Source of the DNA: a virus
Reading direction: 5' to 3' (one strand)
Length of the DNA: 45,951 nucleotides
Virus record (IMG/VR): IMGVR_UViG_3300045988_098044
The translations under genes were made by a program, and so were the position numbers. The number at the start of each line of letters is the position of its first letter. Position 1 is the stretch's first letter. Positions 1,784-25,994 of the stretch are shown in pieces. The notes under the pieces were generated by a model, which searched no databases, was not told the DNA's origin, and worked only from the letters and a program-made list of their open reading frames with translations.

Positions 1784-3202
1784 ATGGGTATAATAAGCAG
1801 AATGAAAGAGATATTAAGTAACCTTTTTAGGCAAAAAGCAAGAGACGAATTTAAGATTGATACTGTTACCAGTCCAGAGATGCAGAGAGCTATAGAAAAG
1901 TGTGCATACATCTATAAGGGCAGTCCGTACTGGTTAGACAAGGACGAACATATCAAGACTATCAACTTTGCAAAAGCGGTGTGTTCGGAGACAGCACGCC
2001 TTGCTACACTTGCAATAGGCGTAGAGATAGATGGCAGTGCAAGAGCTAATTGGTTGCAGGAGCAGATAGACAAGGAACTAGAACAGGTACGACATCACGT
2101 AGAATATGGCTGTGCATACGGTACAGTAGTATTAAAGCCTAACGGCTCAAGTGTGGACTTGATCACGCCAGAAAACTTTATTGTAACAGACGAAAGCAAT
2201 GGAGAGATTCAAGGGATTGTATTTGTGCATCGTGAAATTTCCAGTGATGGCAAGACATACTACACTAAACTAGAATATCACAGATATATTGAGGATGTAT
2301 ATCAGATCACAAATAGGTGCTATGCTTCTAAGGATGCCAACGATACAGGAAAACCGATTGACATAGACGAGACACCTTGGAGGGGAGAACTAGAGGATGT
2401 AGGACTTACAAACCTAAACGGACAACGTCTGTATGCAGTTCTAAGAACACCGCAGGCGAACAATGTAGACTTGCATTGTAGTTTAGGATTGCCTATCTTT
2501 TACGAAGCAATAGAAGAGCTAAAAGATTTAGACACTGCATACAGCAGGAACGCAACAGAGATATTCGACAGCCGAAGAATGTTGTTACTAGACTCCGACA
2601 AGCTGTTAGAGACTGGTACAAGGGTAAATAATACACAGGATGGATTTGAGAGAAGCAAGAAGCGGTTAAGATTGCCAGAGTACGTCAAGAATGTAAATAG
2701 CTCAGACATTAAAGGATTCTATCAAGAGGTAAACCCAAGTCTCAACACGGATACACGATTGACAGGAATCAATGCATTGTTAAGCCAGATCGGCTATAAA
2801 TGCGGATTCTCCAATGGATACTTTGTATTTAACGAAACGGCAGGCATCCAGACAGCAACAGGAGTTGAAGCAGAGCAACAGAGGACGATACAATTTGTTA
2901 AGGACGTAAGAGACAAATTACAAGCCTGCATGGATGATCTGATTGCAGCACTTAATATATTCGCTGATCTGTATCAATTAGCACCAAGAGGACCGTATGA
3001 AACCGTGTATGACTTTGGAGACATTACATACAACGAAGATGAAGATAGAGCGAGATGGTACAGCTATGTTACTTCCAACAAGATTCCATTCTGGTACTAT
3101 CTAGTTAAATTTGAGGGATTCAGTGAAGAAGAAGCAAAAGCACTTGAAGAAGAAGCACAACCGAAAGAGCCAGACTTATTCGGTGCAAGCGGAGAGGAGT
3201 GA
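1784..3202 (+). CDS. Portal protein (SPP1 gp6-like)
   Basis: 472 aa, directly downstream of the terminase. Its N-terminal sequence pattern is typical of Firmicutes phage portals. Confidence 0.85.
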   Translation: MGIISRMKEILSNLFRQKARDEFKIDTVTSPEMQRAIEKCAYIYKGSPYWLDKDEHIKTINFAKAVCSETARLATLAIGVEIDGSARANWLQEQIDKELEQVRHHVEYGCAYGTVVLKPNGSSVDLITPENFIVTDESNGEIQGIVFVHREISSDGKTYYTKLEYHRYIEDVYQITNRCYASKDANDTGKPIDIDETPWRGELEDVGLTNLNGQRLYAVLRTPQANNVDLHCSLGLPIFYEAIEELKDLDTAYSRNATEIFDSRRMLLLDSDKLLETGTRVNNTQDGFERSKKRLRLPEYVKNVNSSDIKGFYQEVNPSLNTDTRLTGINALLSQIGYKCGFSNGYFVFNETAGIQTATGVEAEQQRTIQFVKDVRDKLQACMDDLIAALNIFADLYQLAPRGPYETVYDFGDITYNEDEDRARWYSYVTSNKIPFWYYLVKFEGFSEEEAKALEEEAQPKEPDLFGASGEE

Positions 3203-3206
3203 AAGT

Positions 3207-3437
3207 ATGGGAAAGTACAGGATTGAAAAATACCTTGAATACCTTAATGGCGAAGATGTAAAACTGCCCGAACCATTTACAAAACAAAAAAAGCTGTTGT
3301 ACAACATCTGCAAAAAGGGAGTTACAGGCAGTACAGAAACAGACAAAACATTAACGCAAGAGGGCAAGCCTGCGGATGCGGCAGTAGTTGGAAAGATGCT
3401 AGATGCGGCACTAATGGTAAAAGACCCAGAAGAATAG
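3207..3437 (+). CDS. Hypothetical 76-aa protein carrying a fibre-type motif (DKTLTQEGKPADAAVVGK)
   Basis: ATG at 3207 with GGAGAGGAG RBS. The longer track ORF 3111..3437 overlaps the portal. The motif is shared with the tail fibre gene at 22819..22871. Confidence 0.6.
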   Translation: MGKYRIEKYLEYLNGEDVKLPEPFTKQKKLLYNICKKGVTGSTETDKTLTQEGKPADAAVVGKMLDAALMVKDPEE

Positions 3438-3449
3438 GCAGGTGGGATT

Positions 3450-4667
3450 ATGTTAACACCTACCTATCTCTGGTATGTGCCAGAAAAGGCAGAGAAGCAA
3501 GCAGAAGAGCTACATAACAAGATAGTATCTGTCATTATAGAGCGAATGATGATAAGGCTAGGACGTGGGGAAGATTACCTTTTTACTCCTATTGACAAGT
3601 GGCAGATGGATGTATTGCAGGATGCAGGGTATATCTTGCAAGCGGTACAGGCAGAGATAGCACAAACGACAAAGATAAGTATTGCAGAGATCGCACGCAC
3701 TATGAAAGAAGCAGGAATCAAGGCTCTTGAATGGGATGATACAATCTACAAGAAAGCAGGTCTTGAACCAACACCACTCGGGGAAAGTCCTTATCTACAG
3801 AGACTGTTGCAAAGGGATTATGAAAAGACCAAGGGAGAGATGTATAACTTTACTGGCACGATGCCGAACGCCTGCCATGATAATTATATTAAAGCAGTGG
3901 ATAAAGCATATACACAGACTGCAAGCGGTACAACGAGCTACACAGAAGCGGTCAAAGAAGCTGTTAACGACATTATAGACAAGGGTGCAGATGTAACATA
4001 CCCTAGCGGACGTAGAGACAGCATAGAGACAGCTACAGCGAGAGCGGTCCGTACTGGTGTAAGCCAAATGGCAGCAGATATTACAGATGCACGTATGGAC
4101 GAGATGAACTGGGATATAATTCTCACGTCTGCACATTTAGGAGCAAGAATTGGAGACGGTGGAGACAACTTAACAAATCATTACTGGTGGCAAGGCAAGT
4201 TTTACAGCAAAAGCGGTAATGACCAAAGATTTCCGCCTTTTTCGGTCTGCGGTATGGGAAACGTGCAGGGAATCCATGGGGCAAACTGCCGGCACTCCCA
4301 CGGTCCGGGGGATGGAACAAACAATCCGTTTGAGGACTACGACAGCGAAGAGAATCGCAAAGAATATGAAAAACGGAAACGACAGAGAGAGCTTGAAAGA
4401 CGTATCAGAAAGACGAAACGACAGTTAATCGGCATGAAAACGGCTGTGGATAATGCAAAGGACGAAGCCTTAAAGCACGATCTTGACATGGAGTATCAGA
4501 AAAAGGCGGCACTATTGCAGAAGCAAAACAAAGCCTACAATGATTACTGCAAAGAGAACAATCTTAAGAAGCAGAGCGAACGACTAAACACAGCAGATTG
4601 GAACAGGAGTCAAGCATCATCAGCACGAGGTGCAGCAACACGATACAACAATGCACGAGGTAAATAA
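3450..4667 (+). CDS. Minor capsid / head morphogenesis protein (MuF / SPP1 gp7-like)
   Basis: 405 aa, positioned after the portal. Contains a GANCRHS motif and a basic coiled C-terminus typical of this family. Confidence 0.75.
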   Translation: MLTPTYLWYVPEKAEKQAEELHNKIVSVIIERMMIRLGRGEDYLFTPIDKWQMDVLQDAGYILQAVQAEIAQTTKISIAEIARTMKEAGIKALEWDDTIYKKAGLEPTPLGESPYLQRLLQRDYEKTKGEMYNFTGTMPNACHDNYIKAVDKAYTQTASGTTSYTEAVKEAVNDIIDKGADVTYPSGRRDSIETATARAVRTGVSQMAADITDARMDEMNWDIILTSAHLGARIGDGGDNLTNHYWWQGKFYSKSGNDQRFPPFSVCGMGNVQGIHGANCRHSHGPGDGTNNPFEDYDSEENRKEYEKRKRQRELERRIRKTKRQLIGMKTAVDNAKDEALKHDLDMEYQKKAALLQKQNKAYNDYCKENNLKKQSERLNTADWNRSQASSARGAATRYNNARGK

Positions 4668-4999
4668 TGGATACTATAAACGAAATTGTGGTAGCCTGTG
4701 GGTGGATTATTACAATTGGTGGAGCTATAGGAGTATTGTACACTGCCTATAAGCATTACAAGAAGCCTACAGACGATTTGGAACAGCGAATAGAACATAT
4801 AGAAACAGATATCAAAGAAATTAATCAAAAGCTCAATAGTGACTATAGTACGATCAACAAACAGCAAGACGATATGAACTTAGTCATGAAGAGTATGTTT
4901 AATTTGATTGAGAATAAGATTACTGGAAACAACATTGAGGGTCTAAAAAAAACCAGAGACGATCTGATAAATGCACTGACAACACACGACAAACAGTGA
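4667..4999 (+). CDS. Hypothetical N-terminally membrane-anchored coiled-coil protein
   Basis: TAATG overlap with the upstream gene. Hydrophobic segment VVACGWIITIGGAIGVLYTAY followed by a heptad-like region. Confidence 0.6.
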   Translation: MDTINEIVVACGWIITIGGAIGVLYTAYKHYKKPTDDLEQRIEHIETDIKEINQKLNSDYSTINKQQDDMNLVMKSMFNLIENKITGNNIEGLKKTRDDLINALTTHDKQ

Positions 5000-5211
5000 G
5001 GTGTTTGCTTTTGAAAGTATATGATTTTACCGTACCCGAACTAAATATGTTCCGTACGTATTGCAACTTCACAGATGTTGAAAGAACATTGTTCGAGTAT
5101 CGGGCAAAGAATATACCACTGGATAAATGTGCAGAGCTTATGAACGTAAGTCTGTCTACAGCAAAGAGAATCAGCAGGAGAGTTAATAACAAGATTATTA
5201 GAGTATGTTAG
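4996..5211 (+). CDS. Small HTH protein, sigma-70 region-4-like (possible late regulator); the start may be TTG 5011
   Basis: C-terminal LDKCAELMNVSLSTAKRISRRV resembles a sigma region 4 / LuxR-type HTH. GAGG RBS at 4998. Confidence 0.5.
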   Translation: MRCLLLKVYDFTVPELNMFRTYCNFTDVERTLFEYRAKNIPLDKCAELMNVSLSTAKRISRRVNNKIIRVC

Positions 5212-5220
5212 GAGAAGAAA

Positions 5221-5484
5221 ATGGGAAGTAGAGAATTTTTAGCAGTATGCAAAGCCAAGATTGCAGATTATGTGAATGATCATATTGATAAGACAGATCA
5301 GAAACATCTTACGATCAACGATATATACGTTGTCTGGTATGCTAAGACATTACAGAATCATAAAGCACTTTTAAGCACGACATTATCCGATGGAATGTAT
5401 TATGAAATGACATTTAACGGAGATAAGAGGGAGCTATACATGGATGCTTATAAGAAGTGGGAAAATGTCAAATTTGATATGTAA
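5221..5484 (+). CDS. Conserved small phage protein, function unknown
   Basis: AGGAGAA RBS; 87 aa; co-oriented with its neighbours. Confidence 0.6.
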   Translation: MGSREFLAVCKAKIADYVNDHIDKTDQKHLTINDIYVVWYAKTLQNHKALLSTTLSDGMYYEMTFNGDKRELYMDAYKKWENVKFDM

Positions 5485-5508
5485 TGGACAATGAAAAAAA
5501 GAGGGGGA

Positions 5509-5536
5509 TTGAAAAGGTAAAAATCCATGATACAAT
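5509..5536 (+). promoter_or_regulatory. Sigma-A-type promoter: TTGAAA, 16-nt spacer, TGaTACAAT (extended -10)
   Basis: Read directly from the sequence. Near-identical architecture at 9027..9055 and 27588..27615. Confidence 0.5.
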
Positions 5537-5631
5537 ATAAATGTAACAAGTAATAAGTTGTTGAATAAATTATTATAAGATTTCATTTTTAGTTTTAAAT
5601 GAGAGTGGTTTGTTTCGGAGATACTTTTTCA

Positions 5632-5640
5632 TGTTATAAT
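5632..5640 (+). promoter_or_regulatory. Extended -10 element TGtTATAAT about 65 nt upstream of the tRNA
   Basis: Sequence match only; the -35 is poor. Confidence 0.3.
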
Positions 5641-5704
5641 ACTTTAATCCTTTCTTTATTGTTTTGTTATGTATATAGTACGGTGGATTCCTCACGGAGT
5701 CCGT

Positions 5705-5778
5705 GGAAGTATAACTCAGTTGGTCAGAGTAGTCGGCTCATAACCGACCTGTCACAGGTTCGAGTCCTGTTGCTTCCA
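5705..5778 (+). tRNA. tRNA with anticodon CAU (Met, or Ile2 if lysidine-modified)
   Basis: Hand-folded cloverleaf. Acceptor GGAAGTA/TGCTTCC, D stem ACTC/GAGT, anticodon arm GTCGG-CTCATAA-CCGAC, T arm ACAGG-TTCGAGT-CCTGT, discriminator A. Total 74 nt. Confidence 0.85.
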
Positions 5779-5907
5779 TTTGCTCACTGTTGTGAGCATG
5801 AGAAATCATTTTTGAATTTCCTCAATTTTTTGGTTTAAATTTCATTTTTCAACACGACACCTTTTTTCATCAATTGGTGTTCCCCAATCTTATCCTTATT
5901 GTTCAAA

Positions 5908-5939
5908 CACCATGACCCCTATCATGGTGCTAATTTTTT
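5908..5939 (+). terminator. Intrinsic terminator-like hairpin (CACCATGA / TCATGGTG) with a T-run
   Basis: 8-bp stem and 6-nt loop; TTTTTT follows 4 nt downstream. Confidence 0.45.
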
Positions 5940-5960
5940 AATTTAATATGATACTTTTAT

Positions 5961-5993
5961 GAGACTTTAACGACCTGTTAGAGTCTCTTTTTT
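5961..5993 (+). terminator. Strong intrinsic terminator (GAGACTTTAAC / GTTAGAGTCTC + TTTTTT)
   Basis: 11-bp stem (one G-U pair), 5-nt loop, immediately followed by T6. Confidence 0.7.
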
Positions 5994-5995
5994 AA

Positions 5996-6004
5996 TGCGA
6001 TAAT
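5996..6004 (+). promoter_or_regulatory. Extended -10 element TGcGATAAT just upstream of the cassette
   Basis: Sequence match; lies between the terminator and the RBS of the 6030 gene. Confidence 0.3.
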
Positions 6005-6029
6005 TTACACATAAAAGGGAGGTGGAAGA

Positions 6030-6467
6030 GTGAACGGATATAACTATAATCCTTATGCACCAATGTATCAGCAGGATACAATGCAGTTGCAGGATAGGCT
6101 AAATCAGTTACAGCAAATGCAACAGCAGTACAATAAACCAATGCCAGAGACACAAGTTCCAACACAGAATGTTAATTGGATACAAGTTGCAGGCATAGAG
6201 GGAGCAAAGAACCAGATCGTACAGCCAGGGGCTACAGCATGGATGATGGATAACAACGCACCTTTCTTTTATGTAAAGAGTGTAGATGGAATGGGCAGTG
6301 CAACTTTTAAGGTATTTAGATTCGAGGAGATACCGCCAGAAGCCACGCAGAACGCCCAAAAACAAAATGTAAACTATGATAATAGATATGTTACAAGAAC
6401 AGAGTTTGAAGAACTTCTAGCAAAGCTAGGAGAGCAACCAGAGAAAGGAGAGTTAAGCAATGAGTAA
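6030..6467 (+). CDS. Cassette gene 1: protein with a Q/N/Y-rich N-terminus and a globular C-domain; function unknown
   Basis: GTG start 5 nt after the GGGAGGTG RBS. N-terminal sequence NGYNYNPYAPMYQQ..LQQMQQQYN. Confidence 0.7.
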   Translation: MNGYNYNPYAPMYQQDTMQLQDRLNQLQQMQQQYNKPMPETQVPTQNVNWIQVAGIEGAKNQIVQPGATAWMMDNNAPFFYVKSVDGMGSATFKVFRFEEIPPEATQNAQKQNVNYDNRYVTRTEFEELLAKLGEQPEKGELSNE

Positions 6468-6717
6468 TCCTTTAATGAACATGATAGGCGGTATGATAGG
6501 AAACAACAACCCTATGCAAATGGTACAGCAGGTAATGGGCATGGTAAGAGGGTCTAACAATCCGCAGTCTATGGTTGAGAGCATGGCACAGACAAACCCT
6601 GCGATCAAGCAGGCAATGGAAATGTGCAAGGGAAAGAACCCACAAGAAGTGTTTAATAGCCTATGCCAACAGCAGGGCATGAATCCACAGGATATTGTGG
6701 ACAAAGTGAACAAATAG
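6460..6717 (+). CDS. Cassette gene 2: 85-aa M/Q/N/P-rich protein with five NP-initiated repeats; function unknown
   Basis: AAAGGAGAG RBS. Repeats NNPMQMV, NNPQSMV, TNPAIKQ, KNPQEVF, MNPQDIV. Confidence 0.7.
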   Translation: MSNPLMNMIGGMIGNNNPMQMVQQVMGMVRGSNNPQSMVESMAQTNPAIKQAMEMCKGKNPQEVFNSLCQQQGMNPQDIVDKVNK

Positions 6718-6767
6718 ATATTAAGCGGTGCACAGCTTGGTAAATAAATTTATGGAGGACAACAACA

Positions 6768-7457
6768 ATGAATGAAGCAATGGGACTCACTGCGGCAGAT
6801 GTAGCGGCAGTGACAAGAAATGACGGATATGATAACGGCTTCGGCAACGGTGGTTGGTGGATTTGGATTATCTTAATTGCTTTCCTTTTCTGTGGTAACG
6901 GATGGGGAAGAAATAACGATACCGCAACGACCGCAGGCGAAAATGCTTTCTTATCCGATGAGTTTGTTAAGAGAGATATTTTCAATACAAACCAGAACGT
7001 ATCTAATACAGCTTGTCAGACACAGAGAGACGTATTAGAAAGCAGATACACAACACAGTTAGGATTACAGCAGATGCAGGCACAACAGCAGGCTTGTTGC
7101 TGTGAAACACAGAAAGAAGTGTTACAGAACCGCTATGATGCGGCTTTAATGGCCCAGAATATGCAGGCACAGATGGCACAGTGTTGCTGTGATATTAAGG
7201 AAACAATCCTCGCAGACGGACAGGCTACACGCCAGTTGATGCAGGACAACACAATCCAGAATCTTAGAGATAAACTTGCGGACAGAGATAGAGACTTACA
7301 GTTATCTAACTTCCAGATTTCGCAGGTATCACAGACTAAGAACATTGTGGATGCTGTTAGACCATTCCCAACACCTGCATACATTACAGCAAGTCCTTAT
7401 GTATCCTATAATGGGTATGCATACGGTGGTTGCAACTGCGGAAGTGTAAATGTGTAA
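6768..7457 (+). CDS. Cassette gene 3: membrane-anchored coiled-coil protein with two CCC cysteine triplets and a C-terminal GGCNCG; function unknown
   Basis: GGAGGA RBS. TM segment GGWWIWIILIAFLFCGNGW. TGT-TGC-TGT codons at 7095..7103 and 7182..7190. Confidence 0.75.
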   Translation: MNEAMGLTAADVAAVTRNDGYDNGFGNGGWWIWIILIAFLFCGNGWGRNNDTATTAGENAFLSDEFVKRDIFNTNQNVSNTACQTQRDVLESRYTTQLGLQQMQAQQQACCCETQKEVLQNRYDAALMAQNMQAQMAQCCCDIKETILADGQATRQLMQDNTIQNLRDKLADRDRDLQLSNFQISQVSQTKNIVDAVRPFPTPAYITASPYVSYNGYAYGGCNCGSVNV

Positions 7458-7517
7458 ATAAATCAAGCTTGTTGGAAGAATCCATATCTACTAAGTAGAC
7501 TAGCAATATATTGACGA

Positions 7518-7546
7518 TAGGGTGTCGGGTTCGGCATCCTATTTTT
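7518..7546 (+). terminator. Intrinsic terminator (TAGGGTGTCG / CGGCATCCTA + TTTTT)
   Basis: 10-bp stem including two G-U pairs, 4-nt loop, T-run. Confidence 0.5.
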
Positions 7547-7563
7547 GTTTAGGAGGGAAAATT

Positions 7564-7992
7564 ATGTTAAATGCGGTAAATGTAGCACAGCAGGATGTAA
7601 ACAGTGGTGCAAACGTACTATTTGCGAATACACGATATAGTAGCAGACGTTGTACTTGTAATTATGGGTGGCTGAATCATGTAGAGGGGTCTGGTCTGTT
7701 TACGTTAACGAATAGATCAAACTGTCCTATGACTGTAGAGGTAGAATTTAACGGAAATGTATCCGCTAATGCAGTAGGAGCAACGGCACTTGCTGTAGAG
7801 CTTAACGGAGAAGCTATTGGTGGAACAGAAATGGACTATACAGTAGTTACAGCGAACACATTTCAGAACGTGGGAGCAACAACGGTTGTAACTGTACCAT
7901 CTTGCGGTAGCTTAATCGTAAGCATCGGAAATGTAGGAACAACAGCGGCAATAGTAAAAGATGCGAATATTATTATAAAGCGTATCTCTTAA
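7564..7992 (+). CDS. Cassette gene 4: C1q/TNF-like (BclA C-terminal-domain-like) beta-jelly-roll protein, putative
   Basis: ATG 7564 follows an AGGAGGGA RBS. The beta-rich pattern ..LFTLTN..VEVEFNGNVS..LAVELNGEAIGGT..VVTVPSCGSLIVSIGN..ANIIIKRIS resembles BclA_C domains. Confidence 0.45.
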   Translation: MLNAVNVAQQDVNSGANVLFANTRYSSRRCTCNYGWLNHVEGSGLFTLTNRSNCPMTVEVEFNGNVSANAVGATALAVELNGEAIGGTEMDYTVVTANTFQNVGATTVVTVPSCGSLIVSIGNVGTTAAIVKDANIIIKRIS

Positions 7993-8004
7993 GGAGGTGC
8001 GATC

Positions 8005-8595
8005 ATGATTGAATTTACAAACAATCTTGAAGTAACAAAAACAGAAGATATCTTTGACGAGATCAACAAAAGATATGTAGCGGCTATGATGATACACGGT
8101 CAAATGGCAGACTATTTCAATTTCTTAGGTTTGAAAGGCTACAAAAGATTACATGAATACCAGTTTCTTACAGAAAGTTTGGAAAGACGTGAAATATGCA
8201 GGTATTTTGTAGATCATCACGGCAAGCTTTTAAAAGATTCTTTTAGCGGTACTATAAAAGTGATTCCCGACTCTTGGTATACAGCCAGTAGACTAAGTAT
8301 CGGAAAATCTACAAAGCAGAAAGCCGTAGAGGATGGCTTTATAGAGTATCACAACTGGGAGAAAGAGACAAAAGAAGCCTATGAGAAGTACGCACAGCAA
8401 CTTAGAACGAACGGAAACGTATCGGATGCACTATTTGTAGAATGTCTGGTAAAAGACGTATCTAAAGAGCTAGAAACAGTTGAAAAGATGGTTACTGATC
8501 TAATCTCTGTAGGATACGACATGGTGTATATTACAGAGACACAGGACTGCATACATGAAAAATACAAAAAGAAGCTTAAGGAGGTCAAATTATGA
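8005..8595 (+). CDS. Cassette gene 5: ferritin-like four-helix-bundle protein, putative
   Basis: AAGGAGGTG RBS. By eye, MADYFNFLGLKGYKRLHEYQFLTESLERRE..HHGKLL and ALFVECLVKDVSKELETVEKMVTDL align to ferritin helices A/B and D. The metal ligands are not clearly conserved. Confidence 0.4.
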   Translation: MIEFTNNLEVTKTEDIFDEINKRYVAAMMIHGQMADYFNFLGLKGYKRLHEYQFLTESLERREICRYFVDHHGKLLKDSFSGTIKVIPDSWYTASRLSIGKSTKQKAVEDGFIEYHNWEKETKEAYEKYAQQLRTNGNVSDALFVECLVKDVSKELETVEKMVTDLISVGYDMVYITETQDCIHEKYKKKLKEVKL

Positions 8596-9014
8596 GTGAA
8601 ATCAAACATGTTCTGGAAGAACAGCTAGAAAGAGAAAAAAACTCAGCATTAAAACAGCTCACAACATCTAATCTTGATGCAATGTATAAGATTACAACAA
8701 CATTATGCAATCTGGAAAAGATGGAGCATGGAGACATAGCGGAAACCGTCATGGATGCAGGAGAGAATCTTATTAAGAAGTACAGCAATGGCAAGTATGA
8801 TAAAAATATAGATGCATTGTATGACAACTACTTAAGTGCTAAAATGGCATACAAAGAAAACGGAGATCAAGGACACCGTGATAAACTTATGGAATCGGTC
8901 GGTAGATTGATGGTGGAAGTGTATGATATGCTTTCTTCTATGGTTATTGATTCTGACTTTATGGACGAGAGAAAAGAGATACAGCGACAGATAAAGAAAC
9001 TTGCGGAAATGTAA
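8592..9014 (+). CDS. Cassette gene 6: helical 140-aa protein; function unknown
   Basis: AAGGAGGTC RBS; ATGA overlap with the upstream gene. Confidence 0.65.
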   Translation: MSEIKHVLEEQLEREKNSALKQLTTSNLDAMYKITTTLCNLEKMEHGDIAETVMDAGENLIKKYSNGKYDKNIDALYDNYLSAKMAYKENGDQGHRDKLMESVGRLMVEVYDMLSSMVIDSDFMDERKEIQRQIKKLAEM

Positions 9015-9026
9015 AAAAAGAGGGTA

Positions 9027-9055
9027 TTGAAACGGCATATTTTAGGGTTTACAAT
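9027..9055 (+). promoter_or_regulatory. Sigma-A-type promoter: TTGAAA, 17-nt spacer, TACAAT
   Basis: Read directly. The upstream AAAAAAAGAGGG tract is shared with the promoter at 5509. Confidence 0.5.
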
Positions 9056-9158
9056 AAATATGTAGGAATTATGCAGATTTGCTACAGCCTCCTTGTAAGT
9101 ACAGAGTTTTTTAAGCGTTTTTGGTTGCACGACAACAGGAAAAGAGTTCGAGGCTCGA

Positions 9159-9186
9159 GTGGGGTTCAAGTCCCCACATTTCTTTT
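9159..9186 (+). terminator. Terminator-like GC hairpin (GTGGGG-TTCAAGT-CCCCAC) followed by ATTTCTTTT
   Basis: 6-bp GC-rich stem and T-rich tail. It lies between the 9027 promoter and the scaffold gene. Confidence 0.4.
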
Positions 9187-9261
9187 ACCTTGACTTAGGT
9201 ATATAAGTCTTAATCCATTACCGCAGACATAGCGGTATACAAACAATGTAGGAGGATATAT

Positions 9262-9891
9262 ATGCAGAATTACGAACAGATTTTAGCAGAATTAGGAATC
9301 GAAATCCCAGAAGAGAAAAAGGCAGAGCTTAAAAAAAGACATGCCGAAAATTATAAGACTGTAGCTGATTATAATAAACAGGTAGAGAAAAAAGATGAAT
9401 ACAAAACATCTTTAGACGATGTACAGACCAGATTAGCAGAATTAGAGAAAGAAGATGTTGACGGTCTTAAGACTAAGATTACAACATTAACACAGGAGCT
9501 TGCAGACGAAAAAGAAGCAAGAGCAAAAGAAGCTAAGCAGACAGAGTTAAGAGACAAGGTAAAAGATTTCTTATCTGATAAAAAATTTGTAAATGCAATC
9601 ACAGAAGACTCTATCCGTTCCCAGATGATTCAGAAGTTAGAAGAAGAGAATGGGAAAAATGCAGAAGATGTATTTAAAGAACTTACTACTAAAGATGGGA
9701 AACCAATTGAGAACATCTTGGTTGACGAAAAGAAAGCACCAGCTCCTAATATCCCAAGCTTTACGACTAAGTTCAACAGCGGAGAGCAGAAAAAGGGAAC
9801 ACAGAAGTTAAGGGAAATGTCTTTAGACGACAGAATGAAGCTTAAGGCAGAGGACCCAGACTACTATGCAACCTTATTAAATGACAGATAG
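9262..9891 (+). CDS. Scaffolding protein (Phage_GP20-like)
   Basis: Charged coiled-coil protein of 209 aa, immediately upstream of the capsid gene; AGGAGGA RBS. Confidence 0.75.
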   Translation: MQNYEQILAELGIEIPEEKKAELKKRHAENYKTVADYNKQVEKKDEYKTSLDDVQTRLAELEKEDVDGLKTKITTLTQELADEKEARAKEAKQTELRDKVKDFLSDKKFVNAITEDSIRSQMIQKLEEENGKNAEDVFKELTTKDGKPIENILVDEKKAPAPNIPSFTTKFNSGEQKKGTQKLREMSLDDRMKLKAEDPDYYATLLNDR

Positions 9892-10013: not shown

Positions 10014-11033
10014 ATGCCAAGAACAGGATCATTTGGTGGTTTTGATTTTGACCCAGAGGTTTTCGCTGAGTTTATGTCAGAAAACCCAACATGGAATGAT
10101 GCGATTATTGCATCTGGTGTGTTAGCACAGGACAATACAATCATGGACTTAATCGGAGAAAAAGGAAACGTTGCAACAATTCCTTTTTATACACCGATTG
10201 ATGAACAAGACTCACAGGCTTTGAACAACGATGGAGAAACAAACAATACACCTGTTGAAATAACAGGAAAGAAACAGACTTGCATGTTAATCCAGAGAAT
10301 GAAAGCTTGGAAAGCAAAAGACTTTACAAAAGAGTTAACAGGTGCAGATCCTATGACTCATGTTGCAAACTCTGTTGCAGGATTTTATAAGCAGGTAAGA
10401 ACACGTGACTTAATGACTACAGTTGATGCAGTTTTAAGCCTGTCTGGTATGGAAAACCATATTACAGACTTATCTTTAACTGGCGAGGGCACTGTAGGAG
10501 ATGCAAACAAAATTGATGATACAACACTTATCTTCGCACAGCAGAAAGCTTTAGGAGATTCCGCTGACAAGATGGGATTACTTGTATTAAACTCTTACAT
10601 CTACGCAAAATACAAAGCAATGGGACTTGTTGACTACAATAAATACACTATTGCTAACGCAGTAGAAAGAGAAGTAAATCTTCCTACAATCGGTGGATTT
10701 ATCCCACTGGTAACAGACAGATTTACAGTTGATACAACAGGAACAAACCCAGTATACAAAACTTATATGCTTGGTACAGGTTCAGTATTGACTTGTGATA
10801 AGACTAACTATGAAAATCCTTATTATACAGACTATGACCCAGAAACATCTGCCGGTATTGAAAAGCTGTATACAAAACAGGGTTATGTATTACATCCTAA
10901 CGGATTTTCTATTAATGCTAACAAGATTGCAAAAGAGTCTCCTACAAATGCAGAGTTAGGAGCTAAAGCAAACTGGTCTTTAGCATTTAACCAGAAGAAT
11001 ATCCGCATGGGTGTTATTAAATCCAACGGATAA
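10014..11033 (+). CDS. Major capsid protein
   Basis: 339 aa, follows the scaffold gene; sequence pattern typical of Firmicutes siphophage capsid proteins. Confidence 0.8.
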   Translation: MPRTGSFGGFDFDPEVFAEFMSENPTWNDAIIASGVLAQDNTIMDLIGEKGNVATIPFYTPIDEQDSQALNNDGETNNTPVEITGKKQTCMLIQRMKAWKAKDFTKELTGADPMTHVANSVAGFYKQVRTRDLMTTVDAVLSLSGMENHITDLSLTGEGTVGDANKIDDTTLIFAQQKALGDSADKMGLLVLNSYIYAKYKAMGLVDYNKYTIANAVEREVNLPTIGGFIPLVTDRFTVDTTGTNPVYKTYMLGTGSVLTCDKTNYENPYYTDYDPETSAGIEKLYTKQGYVLHPNGFSINANKIAKESPTNAELGAKANWSLAFNQKNIRMGVIKSNG

Positions 11034-13074: not shown

Positions 13075-13614
13075 ATGGCAGTTACAACAGGTAAAATTGA
13101 CCGTAAGTATATGGCTCATTTCTTAGATGCAGGCTCTTTGTGCGGTGGTGAAACACCATCCTATGAACGTCTAGGAAAAGACTTAGAAGAGTACAATGTC
13201 GAACTTAATCCCGATACAGAAACAAGTAAAAATATTATCGGAGAATCTACATTCAAACACAACGGATATGAGGTTTCTTCAGAAGCCGACCCTTATTATG
13301 CAGAAGCTGACAGCACATTAAGCCAGAAGTTGCAGGAGATCATTGATAATCGTTACAAAGACGATAATCTGAAAACTACCGCAGTAGAAGTACACCTATG
13401 GAAAGAAGCATCAAGCGGAGCTTATGAAGCATACGCAGAAGATTGTTATATTGTTCCAACATCCTACGGTGGAGACACAAGTGGTTACCAGATTCCTTTC
13501 ACAGTTAACTACGCAGGAAACCGCAGAAAAGGTACTTACAACGTAACATCCGGGACATTTTCAGAAAGTGCTACACAGGACTTAAAAGACAACAGCAAAG
13601 CAGTTTTATCATAA
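13075..13614 (+). CDS. Major tail (tube) protein
   Basis: 179 aa, positioned upstream of the chaperones and tape measure gene; AAAGGAGAA RBS. Confidence 0.7.
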   Translation: MAVTTGKIDRKYMAHFLDAGSLCGGETPSYERLGKDLEEYNVELNPDTETSKNIIGESTFKHNGYEVSSEADPYYAEADSTLSQKLQEIIDNRYKDDNLKTTAVEVHLWKEASSGAYEAYAEDCYIVPTSYGGDTSGYQIPFTVNYAGNRRKGTYNVTSGTFSESATQDLKDNSKAVLS

Positions 13615-24890: not shown

Positions 24891-24970
24891 AAGTATAAAA
24901 TTGAAGATTAAGTATGAAAAATCTTCAAATACATATTAACATATATTTCCACAAAATGAAAGGAGAAATT

Positions 24971-25237
24971 ATGAATCTTAAATTACGTTTCAAGAATAAA
25001 GCAACATTAGTAGCATTGGCCTCTTCCTTAATTGCATTTATCTATCAGATTCTAGGAATCTTAGGTATCACAGCACCAATCGCACAGGATGCAGTATCAC
25101 AGCTTGTAGGTATCATCCTTAATATCTTAGTGACTGTTGGGGTATTGGTGGACCCAACAACAAAGGGAATCGGGGATAGCGAGCTTGCAAAGAACAAAAC
25201 AGATATTGCAGAGGTAATCGAATATAAGGAGGACTAA
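24971..25237 (+). CDS. Holin (phi LC3 / Phage_holin_1-like); start refined to ATG 24971
   Basis: AAAGGAGAA RBS. MNLKLRFKNKATLVAL followed by two TM segments; lies immediately upstream of the endolysin. Confidence 0.75.
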   Translation: MNLKLRFKNKATLVALASSLIAFIYQILGILGITAPIAQDAVSQLVGIILNILVTVGVLVDPTTKGIGDSELAKNKTDIAEVIEYKED

Positions 25238-25238
25238 T

Positions 25239-25994
25239 ATGGCAAATACGGTAGACAAGCTTCTTACAGTAGCCAAAGGAGAAGTCGGATACTTAGAGAA
25301 GAAAAGCAACAAGAATCTAAACAGCAAGACAAAAAACGCAGGTAGCAACAACTACACTAAGTATGGAGCATACTTTGGCATTAATGGTACCGATGCCTAC
25401 TGGTGTGACATGTTCGTTGATTGGTGTATGGTGCAGGCATACGGCAGGGATGTAGCAAAAAATCTCTTACATGGATTTAGTGCATACACTCCAACATCAG
25501 CACAAAAATTTAAAGACAATGACCAGTGGCATAAAACACCACGGATTGGAGACCAGATTTTCTTCAAGAACTCTCAAAGAATCTGCCACACTGGGATCGT
25601 GTATGCAGTAACTGATGAGATGGTGTTCACGATCGAGGGTAACACAAGCAACGGAGAAGCAGTTATTCCAAATGGTGGTGCAGTGTGCAAGAAGTCTTAT
25701 GCTTTAGGCAATAGTCGTATCGCAGGATATGGACGACCTAAATATGATAACGTAAAAGTATCATACAGCATTGTAAAAAAGAACTCTTCTAAATCTGCGA
25801 TCAAGTGGTTACAGAAGAAGCTAAACGCAAACTGTACATATGCAAATAATCATCCGCTGTCTGTAGATGGTATCTGGGGAACTAAGACATACAAAGCACT
25901 ACAGAAGTATTGGAAACAGTTGGGTTGGAAGACGACAGGAAGTTACGCAGGAAAGAAAACTTGCACAGCTCTGAAAAAAAATAGAAAAAAGTAG
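25239..25994 (+). CDS. Endolysin: CHAP amidase/peptidase domain plus a PG_binding_1-like C-domain
   Basis: Catalytic-type Cys (YWCDMFV) and His (ICHTGIVY). C-terminal LSVDGIWGTKTYKALQ motif. Confidence 0.8.
   Translation: MANTVDKLLTVAKGEVGYLEKKSNKNLNSKTKNAGSNNYTKYGAYFGINGTDAYWCDMFVDWCMVQAYGRDVAKNLLHGFSAYTPTSAQKFKDNDQWHKTPRIGDQIFFKNSQRICHTGIVYAVTDEMVFTIEGNTSNGEAVIPNGGAVCKKSYALGNSRIAGYGRPKYDNVKVSYSIVKKNSSKSAIKWLQKKLNANCTYANNHPLSVDGIWGTKTYKALQKYWKQLGWKTTGSYAGKKTCTALKKNRKK

What the first reader, a model, noticed from the sequence alone, without database searches (positions are those of the whole stretch)
5485..9261. Autonomous ~3.8-kb accessory island (tRNA plus a six-gene cassette) interrupts the head-morphogenesis gene order
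In phages of this type the portal/MuF-like genes are normally followed almost directly by the scaffold and capsid genes. Here there are two insertions. The first is a 545-bp non-coding stretch with promoters, a tRNA and two to three terminators. The second is six co-oriented genes (6030..9014), each with a strong GGAGG RBS, none resembling standard virion proteins. The cassette encodes: (1) a Q/N/Y-rich protein; (2) an M/Q/N/P-repeat protein; (3) a membrane-anchored coiled coil with CCC triplets; (4) a C1q/BclA_C-like jelly-roll; (5) a ferritin-like helical bundle; (6) a helical protein. The cassette has its own terminator upstream (5961..5993), an internal terminator (7518..7546), and a promoter plus terminator-like hairpin downstream (9027..9186). 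That architecture suggests a moron-type unit that can be expressed independently of late transcription. Cys-rich, low-complexity, BclA_C-like and ferritin-fold proteins occur together in spore coat/exosporium assemblies. A surface- or spore-modifying lysogenic-conversion module is therefore one hypothesis. Capsid decoration, or internal cargo such as the ferritin-like cargo of encapsulins, is another. Neither follows from the sequence alone.
Basis: partly seen in the sequence, partly recalled or inferred. Interest (0 to 1): 0.8.

Follow-up and report, generated by a model that had tools for sequence, protein, structure and literature searches.

The report
Optional self-regulated cassette in gut phage
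The tRNA and six-gene block among the head genes of this Anaerostipes phage are real, and they belong to an optional, separately regulated accessory module that many gut Firmicutes phages carry at different genome positions, but what the module does is still unknown.

Summary
There is a 545-bp non-coding stretch with a tRNA(CAU) and terminators, followed by six co-oriented genes under purifying selection (6030-9014).

It is not one autonomous island, though. It has three parts:
- **An insertion hot-spot** carrying the tRNA.
- **A conserved block, P1-P6.** This is the 3' part of a larger module that also includes an upstream sigma-70-region-4-type HTH gene (P0b, 4996-5211).
- **A decayed tRNA/ncRNA hub plus a structured 5'UTR** in front of the scaffold gene.

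The same module (HTH, P1, P2, P3, terminator, P4, then P5 and/or P6) sits inside or next to lysis cassettes, after tail fibres, or at prophage ends in unrelated Firmicutes phages. Some of their hosts are genera not known to sporulate. About 30% of near-identical relatives lack both P0b and P1-P6, so the cassette is dispensable.

The fold guesses were right: P4 is BclA_C/C1q-like and P5 has a ferritin fold, but with an altered iron site. The spore and encapsulin-cargo ideas are disfavoured.

Best reading: a mobile accessory operon, insulated from neighbouring transcription and driven late by P0b, whose products assemble around the hydrophobic, Cys-rich P3. Its function remains unknown.

The parts
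4667..4999 (+). P0a: 110-aa protein with an N-terminal hydrophobic helix and a coiled coil. It overlaps the MuF stop codon.
   Evidence: ORF. Matches phrog_1009 (unknown function), with weak holin/spanin-like hits. It is retained in cassette-less relatives, and a homologue sits next to the lysis genes of phage Ceridwen. Membership of the module is uncertain.
4996..5211 (+). P0b: 71-aa sigma-70-region-4/LuxR-type HTH, proposed as the cassette's dedicated regulator.
   Evidence: 56-57% identical to the L001 and L084 homologues. A profile built from these hits the L104 and L197 HTH proteins at 29.6 and 21.3 bits. The L104 protein matches Sigma70_r4_2/HTH_23, and the positional analogue in L168 matches GerE/Sigma70_r4. 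P0b is present in 47 of 47 cassette-bearing close relatives and in 0 of 23 cassette-less ones.
5221..5484 (+). P0c: DUF6275 gene, variable cargo of the P0b-P1 hot-spot and not part of the module.
   Evidence: PF19791, E = 1.8e-33. Present in only some relatives. DNA-level matches occur in many unrelated phages.
5496..5537 (+). Promoter-like element A: A-rich tract, GAGGG, TTGAAA, 16-nt spacer, TACAAT with an upstream TG.
5704..5779 (+). tRNA with a CAU anticodon. It could be elongator Met or lysidine-modified Ile2; not resolved.
   Evidence: ARAGORN and Rfam at 67.7 bits. G1-C72 are paired, so it is not an initiator (sequence). Also present in cassette-less relatives.
5908..5929 (+). Terminator-like hairpin 1, downstream of the tRNA.
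5950..6004 (+). Conserved control region in front of P1. It consists of a GATACTTTT motif (5950-5958), a hairpin (5961-5987) whose apical sequence AACGACCTGTT is conserved, a T-run, and an extended -10 TGCGATAAT (5996-6004).
   Evidence: The hairpin is reported. The layout is conserved in L001, L084, L075, L070, L068, L077 and L169 even though P1 identity falls to about 36%.
6030..6467 (+). P1: Q/N/Y-rich N-terminus, a small alpha/beta domain (residues 48-100) and a C-terminal helix.
   Evidence: phrog_21718. The AF2 core has pLDDT above 90, with no PDB fold match at E below 0.09. 565 database relatives.
6460..6717 (+). P2: 85-aa protein rich in Met, Gln, Asn and Pro (14% Met).
   Evidence: The L084 homologue matches phrog_22984.
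6768..7457 (+). P3: short N-terminal peptide, Gly-flanked hydrophobic segment, long helical region with CCC motifs, and an LRPxPxPAYxTCSPY plus Cys-rich tail. It is the most conserved member of the module.
   Evidence: phrog_16490. 923 representative clusters, nearly all stand-alone proteins of about 200-290 aa. Alignment and hydrophobic segment. 73-78% identity where portal is about 54%. CAI 0.65 and no ATA codons.
7465..7498 (+). Remnant of the 3' end (…LLEESISTK*) of a roughly 75-aa gene that lies between P3 and P4 in relatives and has been deleted here.
7516..7543 (+). Internal intrinsic-terminator-like hairpin plus U-tract, immediately before the P4 RBS.
   Evidence: An equivalent hairpin with an unrelated stem sequence is present at the same position in 12 of 14 divergent modules.
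7564..7992 (+). P4: 142-aa BclA_C / C1q-TNF-like domain protein with no collagen-like part. It is the most variable member.
   Evidence: Relatives carry PF18573. 10 of 22 family members match it, best E = 7.1e-11. dN/dS is 0.34, the highest in the region.
8005..8595 (+). P5: 196-aa ferritin-fold protein (four-helix bundle plus E helix) with a remodelled ferroxidase site. It is an accessory member of the module.
   Evidence: AF2 pLDDT 82, pTM 0.80. Foldseek against PDB ferritins gives E = 1.7e-4 and TM 0.65-0.84. Against BFVD, a Dps/NapA-like phage protein matches with TM 0.73-0.84. The profile against PDB ferritins gives E = 0.02. Residues R23, H31, E57 and E60 are invariant. P5 is absent from L083-L085, L104, L168 and Ceridwen.
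8592..9014 (+). P6: 140-aa helical protein. Homologues elsewhere carry an R/Y/D/S-rich insert.
   Evidence: phrog_28802. Alignment.
9015..9056 (+). Promoter-like element B, a paralogue of element A, placed in front of the scaffold operon.
9138..9183 (+). Degenerate tRNA remnant (T-arm GGGGTTCAAGTCCCC).
   Evidence: Weak tRNA-like Rfam match. It aligns with the T-arms of intact tRNAs that precede the scaffold gene in relatives.
9186..9255 (+). Structured 5'UTR of the scaffold gene: hairpin, then CTTAATCCATTA, then a second hairpin, then the RBS.
   Evidence: Conserved in 9 lineages, with compensatory changes in both stems. No Rfam family matches it.
9262..9891 (+). Scaffold protein gene, marking the right-hand boundary.
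   Evidence: PF06810, E = 4.5e-13.

Best explanation
The stretch is a composite of three elements.

1. **Hot-spot (5212-6029).** This is a lineage-specific insertion hot-spot. It carries a DUF6275 gene, a promoter, a tRNA(CAU) and terminators.

2. **The module (6030-9014 plus P0b at 4996-5211).** This is one copy of a widespread accessory module that recombination moves between Firmicutes phages. Its order is: small sigma-70-region-4/LuxR-type HTH (P0b), then P1, P2, P3, an attenuating terminator, then P4, optionally P5, then P6.

Inferred mode of operation:
- P0b is made with the late genes, because it is translationally coupled to MuF/P0a.
- The cassette is insulated from upstream transcription by a terminator.
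- It is transcribed from its own extended -10 promoter, which has no -35 element. P0b probably activates this promoter through the conserved GATAC…CTGTT region.
- The conserved terminator after P3 keeps P1-P3 in excess over P4-P6.

The products have no signal peptides. They are predicted to assemble inside the infected cell around P3, which is the Cys-rich, hydrophobically anchored and most conserved member. The BclA_C/C1q-like trimer P4 is the variable outward-facing or ligand-binding part. P5 (ferritin fold, catalytic site remodelled) and P6 are lineage-specific additions.

In several phages the module sits inside or beside the holin/endolysin genes, and it is independent of capsid type and dispensable. 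The most likely role is therefore an envelope-associated accessory function at the end of infection: modulating lysis or egress, or masking or excluding at the cell surface. It is not a capsid-building or spore-modifying function.

3. **Remnant hub (9015-9261).** This is the reduced remnant of a promoter + RAGATH-21 + tRNA hub, followed by a structured scaffold 5'UTR.

Shown: the anatomy, distribution, dispensability, selection, folds of P4 and P5, and conserved cis elements.
Inferred: dependence on P0b, late timing, physical assembly, and the envelope/lysis-linked role.
For: **Real, selected genes.** dN/dS is 0.02-0.10 for P1, P2, P3, P5 and P6, and 0.34 for P4. Each protein matches clusters of 88-355 members.

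**Dispensable, and linked to P0b.**
- 47 of 67 MuF-anchored relatives carry P0b plus P1-P6, and 20 lack both.
- 23 cassette-less loci were examined in detail. Their order is MuF, P0a, cargo, tRNA-Met, scaffold.
- The indel junctions lie at about 4994-5209 and 5784-9142.

**The same module in other genomic contexts.**
- Between a holin (PF05105, E = 1.4e-32) and a CHAP endolysin in L104.
- After an amidase endolysin, at the prophage end, in Phascolarctobacterium L168 and Megasphaera L182.
- After the endolysin in Butyrivibrio phage Ceridwen.
- After tail fibres in L089 and L197.
- Between the lysis and replication genes in C. perfringens phages.

It is retained when TerL and MCP are swapped for unrelated types.

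**Tight packing behind late genes.** Gaps are -4 to 34 nt.

**Conserved cis elements.** A terminator plus extended -10 lies upstream of P1. A hairpin precedes P4 in 12 of 14 modules, with stem sequences that are not conserved.

**P0b HTH type.**

**P3 looks highly expressed.** CAI is 0.65, against 0.62-0.74 for MTP, scaffold and MCP, and 0.42-0.58 for most other genes. P3 has no ATA codons.

**P4 and P5 folds.**
Against: - No protein of the module has a characterised homologue. Pfam, NCBIfam, PHROGs and PADLOC give only unknown-function families.
- No expression data exist, so late timing and P0b dependence are inferences.
- The window's own P0b has no significant Pfam hit. Its HTH assignment is transitive, and the L168 and L182 proteins are only positional analogues.
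- P3's hydrophobic core is only about 12-14 residues, flanked by Gly, with no positive-inside bias. Membrane insertion and topology are therefore uncertain.
- Adjacency to lysis genes could simply reflect the usual moron insertion site at prophage ends.
- In C. perfringens phages the module lies among small genes that may be early genes.
- I only hold about 9 kb on each side of MuF in the cassette-less relatives, so a copy elsewhere in those genomes is not excluded.
Confidence: 0.4

Rival explanations
1. Optional virion accessory. The products decorate the capsid or are packaged inside it. For example, P4 could be a trimeric surface knob and P5 an internal ferritin-like cargo. This would be dispensable in the way Hoc, Soc and Dec proteins are.
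For: - In this phage family the cassette sits between the MuF gene and the scaffold/capsid genes.
- BclA_C/C1q-like trimers are typical surface knobs.
- P3 codon usage resembles that of the major structural genes.
- Decoration proteins are typically dispensable, which fits.
Against: - The module keeps its composition with at least three unrelated MCP types, and in phages named as podo- and siphoviruses.
- In other phages it lies inside or after lysis cassettes or at prophage ends, far from head genes.
- P5 also occurs away from capsid genes.
- It carries its own HTH regulator, an insulating terminator and a hydrophobic anchor protein, none of which is usual for decoration genes.
Confidence: 0.15
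2. Lysogenic-conversion moron. The cassette is expressed from the prophage and changes the cell surface or the spore coat/exosporium of the lysogen.
For: - Insulated terminator-promoter architecture.
- Presence/absence polymorphism.
- Prophage-end position in many genomes.
- Composition reminiscent of coat and exosporium proteins: a Cys-rich protein, BclA_C, a ferritin fold, and Tyr-rich inserts.
Against: - Hosts include Megasphaera and Phascolarctobacterium (prophages on contigs of 205 kb and 546 kb), Solobacterium and Butyrivibrio. To my knowledge these do not sporulate.
- None of P1, P2, P4, P5 or P6 has a signal peptide or lipobox (sequences).
- The co-inherited regulator P0b is translationally coupled to late genes.
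- No NCBIfam sporulation family is matched.
Confidence: 0.1
3. Inter-phage conflict system. The module acts in superinfection exclusion, as an abortive or defence system, or as a counter-defence system carried as mobile cargo.
For: - It is optional, modular and exchanged horizontally, with variable accessory parts: P4 or a Cys-rich alternative protein, P5, P6 or a DUF7841 protein, and small C39-like or M78-like peptidases.
- A hydrophobic anchor protein is a possible effector or blocker.
- It lies next to a hot-spot whose cargo in relatives looks like anti-defence genes (this resemblance is from memory only).
- P4 is the fastest-evolving member.
Against: - No PADLOC family is matched.
- The module has no enzymatic, NTPase or nuclease domain.
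- Defence genes are normally expressed from the prophage, whereas this module appears to be tied to late genes.
Confidence: 0.15
4. Lysis-released cargo, following the logic of Stx or TcdR/holin-dependent toxins. A dedicated sigma-like regulator switches on leaderless proteins late in infection. These proteins reach the outside only through phage lysis and then act on neighbouring bacteria or the animal host.
For: - A sigma-r4-type regulator together with leaderless proteins beside holin/endolysin genes.
- P4 has a C1q/TNF-like fold, which binds ligands.
Against: - The invariant core is P1-P2-P3, and P3 is hydrophobically anchored, so it is unlikely to be a released factor.
- No toxin-like or enzymatic domain was found.
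Confidence: 0.1

Closest known systems
Morons of lambdoid phages (Hendrix/Juhala concept; e.g. lambda bor/lom, HK97 gp15)
   Same: - Extra genes inserted between essential late genes.
- Flanked by a terminator and their own promoter.
- Present in some close relatives and absent from others.
- Exchanged horizontally.
   Different: - This is a 6-8-gene operon with a dedicated HTH gene and an internal attenuator, not one or two genes.
- The regulator is coupled to late genes, so expression from the prophage (part of the moron concept) is doubtful.
- Base composition is barely distinct: GC 0.42 against 0.37-0.41 in the flanks.
Late-regulator-driven cargo released by phage lysis (Stx under Q/PR'; TcdR-TcdE, UviA-UviB-Bcn loci of clostridia)
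   Same: A small sigma-type regulator, leaderless products and a physical link to holin/endolysin genes in several phages.
   Different: - P0b is only about 70-90 aa, containing region 4 alone, whereas group-5 sigma factors are about 180 aa.
- There is no toxin or bacteriocin domain.
- The core product is a hydrophobically anchored protein.
BclA C-terminal domain (PF18573), the C1q/TNF-like trimeric knob of Bacillus/Clostridioides exosporium filaments
   Same: The P4 family matches the Pfam model in 10 of 22 members, and the domain size is about 140 aa.
   Different: - P4 has no collagen-like repeats and no N-terminal exosporium-targeting region.
- It is encoded by phages of hosts that include genera not known to form spores.
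- The window's own P4 is below the Pfam threshold.
Prokaryotic ferritin (Ftn) and the Dps-like proteins already noted in Lactobacillus phages and 'Gratiaviridae' (PMC8008677)
   Same: Four-helix bundle plus a short E helix. Whole-chain structural match with TM 0.65-0.84.
   Different: In the profile alignment, ferroxidase ligand E17 aligns with an invariant Arg (R23), H53 with an invariant Glu (E60), and the conserved Tyr with His (H31). Canonical iron oxidation is therefore doubtful. P5 is also embedded in a non-metabolic module.
RAGATH-21 RNA (RF03097), GP20-b RNA (RF03003) and tRNA clusters upstream of phage scaffold (GP20) genes
   Same: In relatives, the gap between P6 and the scaffold gene holds RAGATH-21 (70.9-91.5 bits) followed by 1-3 tRNAs. 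One relative has GP20-b.
   Different: The window itself has lost RAGATH-21 and the intact tRNAs at this site. It keeps only a T-arm remnant, a promoter copy and a two-hairpin UTR motif that is not in Rfam.
Encapsulin operons with ferritin-like (Flp) cargo next to an HK97-fold shell gene
   Same: In this window a ferritin-fold gene lies close to the scaffold gene and an HK97-type capsid gene.
   Different: - The C-terminus (…KKKLKEVKL) does not resemble the encapsulin targeting peptide as I recall it; this was not formally tested.
- P5 also occurs in module copies far from any capsid gene.
- P5 is absent from many copies of the module.

Membership tests
Moron (autonomous accessory transcription unit in a phage late region) | Present in some closely related phages and absent from others | tested here: met
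   Among relatives retrieved by MuF alone, 47 have the cassette and 20 lack it. 23 cassette-less loci were inspected.
Moron (autonomous accessory transcription unit in a phage late region) | Own promoter upstream and a terminator flanking the unit | tested here: inconclusive
   A terminator at 5961-5987 is followed by a conserved extended -10, TGCGATAAT, with no -35 element. No clear terminator follows P6, because the 9159-9177 hairpin is a tRNA remnant. Promoter activity was not measured.
Moron (autonomous accessory transcription unit in a phage late region) | Expressed from the repressed prophage | not testable with these tools
   This needs RNA-seq of lysogens. Indirect evidence argues against it: P0b is translationally coupled to late genes.
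Moron (autonomous accessory transcription unit in a phage late region) | Nucleotide composition distinct from neighbouring genes | tested here: inconclusive
   GC is 0.42-0.43 over 6000-7500, against 0.36-0.41 in the flanks. The difference is small.
BclA_C domain (PF18573) for P4 | Significant match to the Pfam profile | tested here: inconclusive
   The window's P4 has no hit at E below 0.1. 10 of 22 aligned family members match, best E = 7.1e-11, and homologues carry precomputed PF18573. Membership therefore holds by transitive homology only.
BclA_C domain (PF18573) for P4 | Preceded by collagen-like GXX repeats, as in BclA | tested here: not met
   The protein is 142 aa with no GXX repeats.
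BclA_C domain (PF18573) for P4 | Trimeric C1q/TNF-like jelly-roll structure | not tested
The PDB sequence profile search found nothing.
Ferritin (Ftn/Dps superfamily) for P5 | Four-helix bundle with the ferritin topology | tested here: met
   AF2 pLDDT 82, pTM 0.80. Foldseek against ferritins gives E = 1.7e-4 and TM 0.65-0.84. BFVD Dps/NapA-like phage protein, E = 4.5e-7.
Ferritin (Ftn/Dps superfamily) for P5 | Di-iron ferroxidase ligands (E17, E50, H53 and others) | tested here: not met
   In the profile alignment to archaeal ferritins, E17 aligns with R23, E50 with E57, H53 with E60, and Y24 with H31. All four residues are invariant in 25 homologues. Helices C and D were not confidently aligned.
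Ferritin (Ftn/Dps superfamily) for P5 | 24-mer (or 12-mer) cage that stores iron | not testable with these tools
   This needs oligomer and metal analysis.
Encapsulin-type cargo for P5 | Obligate adjacency to the shell/capsid gene | tested here: not met
   In L169 and L197 the P5 homologues follow P3 and P4' after tail genes or at the prophage end.
Spore coat / exosporium assembly | Restricted to spore-forming hosts | tested here: not met
   The module occurs in prophages on Megasphaera (205 kb) and Phascolarctobacterium (546 kb) contigs, in a Solobacterium MAG contig, and in a Butyrivibrio phage. That these genera do not sporulate is my own knowledge.
Spore coat / exosporium assembly | Homology to named coat/exosporium families (GerQ, CotY/ExsY, CotJC and others) | tested here: not met
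   NCBIfam and Pfam scans gave no such hits for P1-P6.
Known anti-phage defence systems (PADLOC-DB 2.0) | Match to any PADLOC protein model | tested here: not met
   No hits for P0b or P1-P6. P0a has only a weak hit, PDC-M09A at E = 0.0014.
tRNA | Cloverleaf scoring above the Rfam gathering threshold | tested here: met
   5704-5779 scores 67.7 bits against a threshold of 29. The 9138-9183 remnant does not pass.
RAGATH-21 RNA (RF03097) | Match above the gathering score in the window | tested here: not met
   Absent from the window. Present in six relatives at the equivalent site.

The most novel reading that the evidence does not exclude
The module builds a self-assembling protein layer that the phage itself specifies. 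Cys-rich P3 would form an anchored lattice cross-linked by disulfide bonds or metal. The C1q-like P4 trimers would form a variable outer nap, with the ferritin-fold P5 and the low-complexity P1, P2 and P6 as matrix. This would be an 'exosporium-like' coat made late in infection in hosts that do not sporulate. Such a layer could encase or tether progeny, or cover the lysing cell envelope. That would be a previously undescribed class of phage-built supramolecular structure, controlled by a minimal protein containing only sigma region 4.
Probability: 0.08. Interest if true: 0.85.

Novelty: new variant of a known kind. Interest (0 to 1): 0.55.

Why it matters
**Prevalence.** The module is common. 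P3 alone has 923 representative clusters at 50% identity. The window's own alleles were seen on more than 1000 contigs from human-gut data.

**Anatomy.** Until now it consisted of six PHROG families labelled 'unknown function'. This work defines it as one unit with:
- a dedicated regulator;
- an insulated promoter;
- a conserved internal attenuator;
- a conserved core (P1-P3);
- a variable periphery (P4, P5, P6 and alternatives).

**A testable system.** Natural isogenic phages with and without the module exist in Anaerostipes hadrus populations. That makes the question 'what does this widespread gut-phage module do?' directly testable.

**A caution for annotators.** A block inside the head gene cluster is not necessarily structural.

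**Other leads.** The neighbouring intergenic region is flagged as a hub for structured RNAs and tRNAs, and it includes a scaffold 5'UTR motif that Rfam does not hold.

Tried and rejected
- **Family libraries.** Pfam, NCBIfam and PADLOC scans of P1-P6 returned nothing significant. PHROGs returned only unknown-function families.
- **PDB sequence searches.** Single-sequence and profile searches for P1, P4 and P5 gave only marginal ferritin hits for P5.
- **P1 structure.** A confident small core was predicted, but it has no fold match (best E = 0.099).
- **Profile-profile comparisons.** P6 against the DUF7841 protein, and P6 against P5, showed no relationship.
- **P3 family alignment.** The full alignment was too divergent for locus finding, so a sub-alignment was used instead.
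- **Folding 9056-9200 as RNA.** No better than shuffled sequence, z = 0.17.
- **Rfam low-threshold scans.** Scans of 5400-9300 and 9000-9300 gave only chance-level hits apart from the tRNA.
- **Literature.** Searches for RAGATH-21, BclA with prophage, A. hadrus prophages and phage ferritin-like proteins gave no functional information on this module. The supplement of the paper that defined the RAGATH and GP20 motifs is not held.

Rejected interpretations:
- **Essential head-morphogenesis genes.** Cassette-less relatives exist.
- **P0a as the phage's holin.** A Phage_holin_1 gene plus a CHAP endolysin lie at 24914-25994.
- **A tRNA-Met supplied to serve the Met-rich cassette.** P2 is 14% Met, but the tRNA is also present in cassette-less relatives.

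Full report
**Context.** The window is a temperate siphovirus-like phage of Anaerostipes hadrus or a related Lachnospiraceae host. Its proteins match entries from A. hadrus, Anaerostipes sp. and 'Lachnospiraceae bacterium OM02-26' exactly.

The gene order is as follows:
- TerL (120-1604)
- portal (1784-3202)
- MuF-type minor capsid protein 2 (3450-4667; PF06152, E = 6.8e-71)
- P0a, P0b and P0c
- a 545-bp gap
- six ORFs
- a 247-bp gap
- scaffold (9262-9891, PF06810)
- major capsid protein (10014-11033, phrog_247)
- tail genes
- Phage_holin_1 plus a CHAP endolysin (24914-25994)
- integrase (26332-27510, minus strand)
- an ImmA/CI-type immunity pair

**Checking the observation.**
- The tRNA (anticodon CAT) lies at 5704-5779.
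- Terminator-like hairpins lie at 5908-5929, 5961-5987 and 7516-7543. The region has 8 against 3.5 +/- 1.7 in shuffles.
- There are six co-oriented ORFs with Shine-Dalgarno sequences, with overlaps between P1 and P2 and between P5 and P6.
- They are genuine genes. Each is an exact member of a database cluster. Pairwise dN/dS against close relatives is 0.02-0.10 for P1, P2, P3, P5 and P6, and 0.34 for P4.

Four corrections apply.
1. P4 starts at ATG 7564.
2. Generic promoter matches are not enriched. Each lies directly after a stop codon, and together they are the only two matches in 46 kb to TTGAAANGG-N12-16-TACAATA (0 in 100 shuffles).
3. The hairpin at 9159-9177 is not a terminator. It is the T-arm of a decayed tRNA.
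4. The functional unit begins upstream of the stated coordinates.

**What the proteins are.**
- **Library scans.** Pfam, NCBIfam and PADLOC give nothing significant for the six window proteins. PHROGs places five of them in unknown-function families, and P2 through its L084 homologue.
- **P1.** It has a Q/N/Y-rich N-terminus and a small, confidently predicted alpha/beta core (residues 48-100, pLDDT above 90). There is no fold match in the PDB.
- **P2.** It is 85 aa and 14% Met.
- **P3.** It belongs to a large family: 923 clusters at 50% identity, nearly all stand-alone proteins of about 200-290 aa. Its parts are a conserved N-terminal peptide, a Gly-flanked hydrophobic stretch, a long helical region with CCCE…/CCCD… motifs, a Pro-rich LRPxPxPAYxTCSPY motif and a Cys-rich tail. 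The hydrophobic core is short (about 12-14 residues) and shows no positive-inside bias, so membrane anchoring is likely but unproven.
- **P4.** It is a BclA_C (C1q/TNF-like) domain by family-level evidence. Homologues carry PF18573, and 10 of 22 aligned members match it, best E = 7.1e-11. The window copy itself is sub-threshold and has no collagen-like part.
- **P5.** It has a ferritin fold. AF2 gives pLDDT 82 and pTM 0.80. Foldseek against archaeal and bacterial ferritins gives E = 1.7e-4 and TM 0.65-0.84. The best viral match is a Dps/NapA-like protein from a gut siphovirus. The sequence profile against PDB ferritins gives E = 0.02. In that alignment ferritin E17, H53 and the conserved Tyr correspond to invariant R23, E60 and H31, and only E50 (E57) is kept. 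The canonical ferroxidase centre is therefore not conserved.
- **P6.** It is helical. Distant homologues carry an R/Y/D/S-rich insert.

None of P1, P2, P4, P5 or P6 has an N-terminal signal sequence (sequences).

**The cassette is part of a larger, portable module.** Loci retrieved through P4 show this order:
- MuF, P0a, P0b, a variable stretch of 0.1-2.3 kb, P1-P6, a 250-800-bp non-coding stretch, scaffold, MCP.
- The order holds down to 50-60% aa identity.
- It also holds where TerL or MCP has been replaced by an unrelated type (MCP 26-30% against 77-100% identity).
- P3 is the most conserved gene: 73-78%, where portal and MuF are about 54%.

More distant copies (25-36% identity) keep P1, P2, P3, P4 and a P6-like protein, but lack P5.

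In these, the same set of genes lies in quite different places:
- between a Phage_holin_4_1 holin and a CHAP endolysin (L104);
- after the endolysin at the very end of prophages in Phascolarctobacterium and Megasphaera contigs, where a DUF7841 protein takes the P6 slot;
- after the endolysin in Butyrivibrio phage Ceridwen;
- directly after tail-fibre genes (L089, L197);
- between the lysis and replication genes in Clostridium perfringens phages CPD1 and PMQ04.

In most of these copies the first gene is a 66-93-aa helix-turn-helix protein.
- The window's P0b is 56-57% identical to the L001 and L084 proteins.
- A profile built from those hits the L104 and L197 proteins.
- The L104 protein matches Sigma70_r4_2/HTH_23.
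- The L168 positional analogue matches GerE/Sigma70_r4.

Optional extras include small C39-like or M78-like peptidase genes, a Cys-rich alternative to P4, and a roughly 75-aa gene between P3 and P4. The window retains only the last 30 nt or so of that gene.

**Is it dispensable?** The P4-anchored set is biased, because every locus in it contains P4. I therefore retrieved relatives through MuF alone (at least 93% aa identity).
- Of 67 loci with enough downstream DNA, 47 carry P0b plus P1-P6. The other 20 carry neither.
- 23 such loci were inspected. They read MuF, P0a, variable cargo, tRNA-Met, scaffold, MCP. Scaffold identity is 91-95% in the 21 loci that hold the whole gene (80% over a partial hit in one cut by the contig end), and MCP is up to 99% identical.
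- DNA alignment places the two indels at about 4994-5209 (P0b) and about 5784-9142. The second begins right after the tRNA and covers the terminators, P1-P6, promoter copy B and the 5' part of the tRNA remnant.

P0b and P1-P6 are therefore inherited or lost together, even though hot-spot cargo and the tRNA separate them. The tRNA belongs to the backbone, not to the cassette.

Synonymous divergence is far lower in P0b-P6 (dS 0.02-0.07) than in portal, MuF and P0a (0.26-0.51). This indicates that one cassette allele has recently spread by recombination among otherwise diverged phages.

**Conserved control elements.** Upstream of P1 the window has, in order:
- GATACTTTT (5950-5958);
- a hairpin (5961-5987) whose apical part AACGACCTGTT is conserved;
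- a T-run;
- an extended -10, TGCGATAAT (5996-6004), about 12 nt before the Shine-Dalgarno sequence.

The same layout, with the -10 as TGCCATAAT, TGTAAAAAT, TGCAAAAAT, TGCGTAAAAT (one extra base) or TGCTAAAAT, precedes P1 in L001, L084, L075, L070, L068, L077 and L169. In L084 it sits in the 90-nt gap between P0b and P1. So P1 has a terminator-insulated promoter without a -35 element, which is the kind that usually needs an activator. P0b is the obvious candidate, but this is an inference.

Between P3 and P4, a strong hairpin plus U-tract lies immediately before the P4 ribosome-binding site in 12 of 14 divergent modules. Their stem sequences are unrelated, so the feature is conserved by position. 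This implies graded expression, with P1-P3 above P4-P6.

P3 has the codon usage of a highly expressed gene. Its CAI is 0.65, against MCP 0.74, scaffold 0.70, MTP 0.62 and 0.42-0.58 for most other genes. P3 also has zero ATA codons, like scaffold and MTP.

**The flanks.**
- **Left flank.** The P0b-P1 interval is a hot-spot. In relatives it holds DUF6275, a 181-217-aa protein, a 91-106-aa protein, reverse-strand HNH-like genes, or small 'GGRGGSSG' proteins.
- **Right flank.** In relatives, the gap between P6 and the scaffold gene holds RAGATH-21 RNA (RF03097, 70.9-91.5 bits) followed by one to three tRNAs. One relative has GP20-b.
- **What the window keeps on the right.** Only promoter copy B, a T-arm remnant and a two-hairpin motif around CTTAATCCATTA, just before the scaffold ribosome-binding site. 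The motif shows compensatory changes in both stems across nine lineages and matches no Rfam family.

**Interpretation.** The evidence supports an optional, horizontally exchanged operon with its own regulator.
- It is probably switched on late. P0b overlaps P0a, which overlaps MuF. Elsewhere the module follows late genes with gaps of 26-34 nt.
- Its products, which lack signal peptides, are likely to assemble around P3.
- It is independent of capsid type, dispensable, and repeatedly found within or beside lysis cassettes. These points argue for an envelope-associated accessory role at the end of infection rather than capsid construction. That functional step is inferred, and I give it about 0.3.
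- Overall confidence in the stated explanation is 0.4. The anatomical statements alone I would put above 0.85.

The spore/exosporium idea is disfavoured by host range, and the encapsulin-cargo idea by P5 copies far from capsid genes. Optional virion decoration, an inter-phage conflict system, prophage-expressed conversion and lysis-released cargo all remain open as rivals.

**Novelty.** The parts were already catalogued as unknown-function PHROG families, and ferritin/Dps-like phage proteins have been noted before (PMC8008677). What appears to be new is the definition of the unit:
- its regulator;
- its conserved cis elements;
- the split into core and periphery;
- its mobility between genome positions;
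- its natural presence/absence polymorphism.

I rate it a new variant of a known kind, namely phage accessory (moron-like) cassettes.

Noticed in passing
L068:11558-11630, L070:11592-11665, L083:2364-2439, L084:10121-10205, L001:5745-5831, L077:10731-10802: RAGATH-21 RNA (RF03097, 70.9-91.5 bits) lies just downstream of the last cassette gene and upstream of 1-3 tRNAs and the scaffold gene in relatives. It is preceded by an anti-Shine-Dalgarno-like CCTCCTTTCT stretch. It is absent from the window.
   Followed up: partly
L068:11727-11799, L069:11729-11801, L072:11732-11801 (also L070:11929-11999, L073:10252-10323): A low-scoring tRNA at the same position in nearly identical phages differs mainly in its anticodon: ATC, AGC and AGT in one group, ACT and TTT in another. 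This could be anticodon switching, or a tRNA-like element with a hypervariable loop.
   Followed up: no
window 9186-9255 and the equivalent 5'UTRs in L001, L067, L068, L070, L074, L077, L083, L084: A two-hairpin motif flanks CTTAATCCATTA directly upstream of the scaffold (GP20) ribosome-binding site. Both stems show compensatory changes. No Rfam family matches it, so it may be an undescribed cis-regulatory element.
   Followed up: partly
window 45437-45520: Skipping-rope RNA (RF02924, 60.7 bits against a gathering score of 36.7) near the right end of the window.
   Followed up: no
window 26098-26158: A weak tRNA-like match (32.6 bits), not called by ARAGORN, lies between the endolysin and the integrase gene. 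It is probably the attP core copying the 3' part of a host tRNA.
   Followed up: no
L004:7391-7936, L281:10562-11215, L286:10838-11491; L071:5997-7068; L068:6960-8065 (minus strand): The hot-spot between P0a/P0b and the tRNA carries changing cargo. One item is a 181-217-aa protein that, from memory only, resembles DUF2829/Tad2-type anti-defence proteins. Others are small proteins starting with GGRGGSSG, and reverse-strand HNH-like genes.
   Followed up: no
window 1784-4999 versus 4996-9891: There is a sharp drop in synonymous divergence among close relatives: dS is 0.26-0.51 for portal, MuF and P0a, but 0.02-0.07 for P0b-P6 and scaffold. This marks a recombination boundary near the P0a/P0b junction.
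   Followed up: partly
window 6768-7457, 9262-9891, 13075-13614: ATA codons are completely absent from P3, scaffold and the major tail protein, and nearly absent from MCP. Other genes have 12-45 per 1000 codons. This matters if the CAU tRNA is really a lysidine-modified tRNA-Ile2.
   Followed up: partly
window 7465-7498: This is a remnant (…LLEESISTK*) of a roughly 75-aa gene that sits between P3 and P4 in L001 and L067-L077, and after P4 in L089. The gene has been deleted in the window's lineage.
   Followed up: partly
L232 (Clostridium phage CPD1) 894-2153: In CPD1 the integrase gene is annotated between the 'minor capsid protein' gene and the presumed capsid genes, which is an unusual position. 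A small collagen-like protein gene lies at 4438-4740.
   Followed up: no
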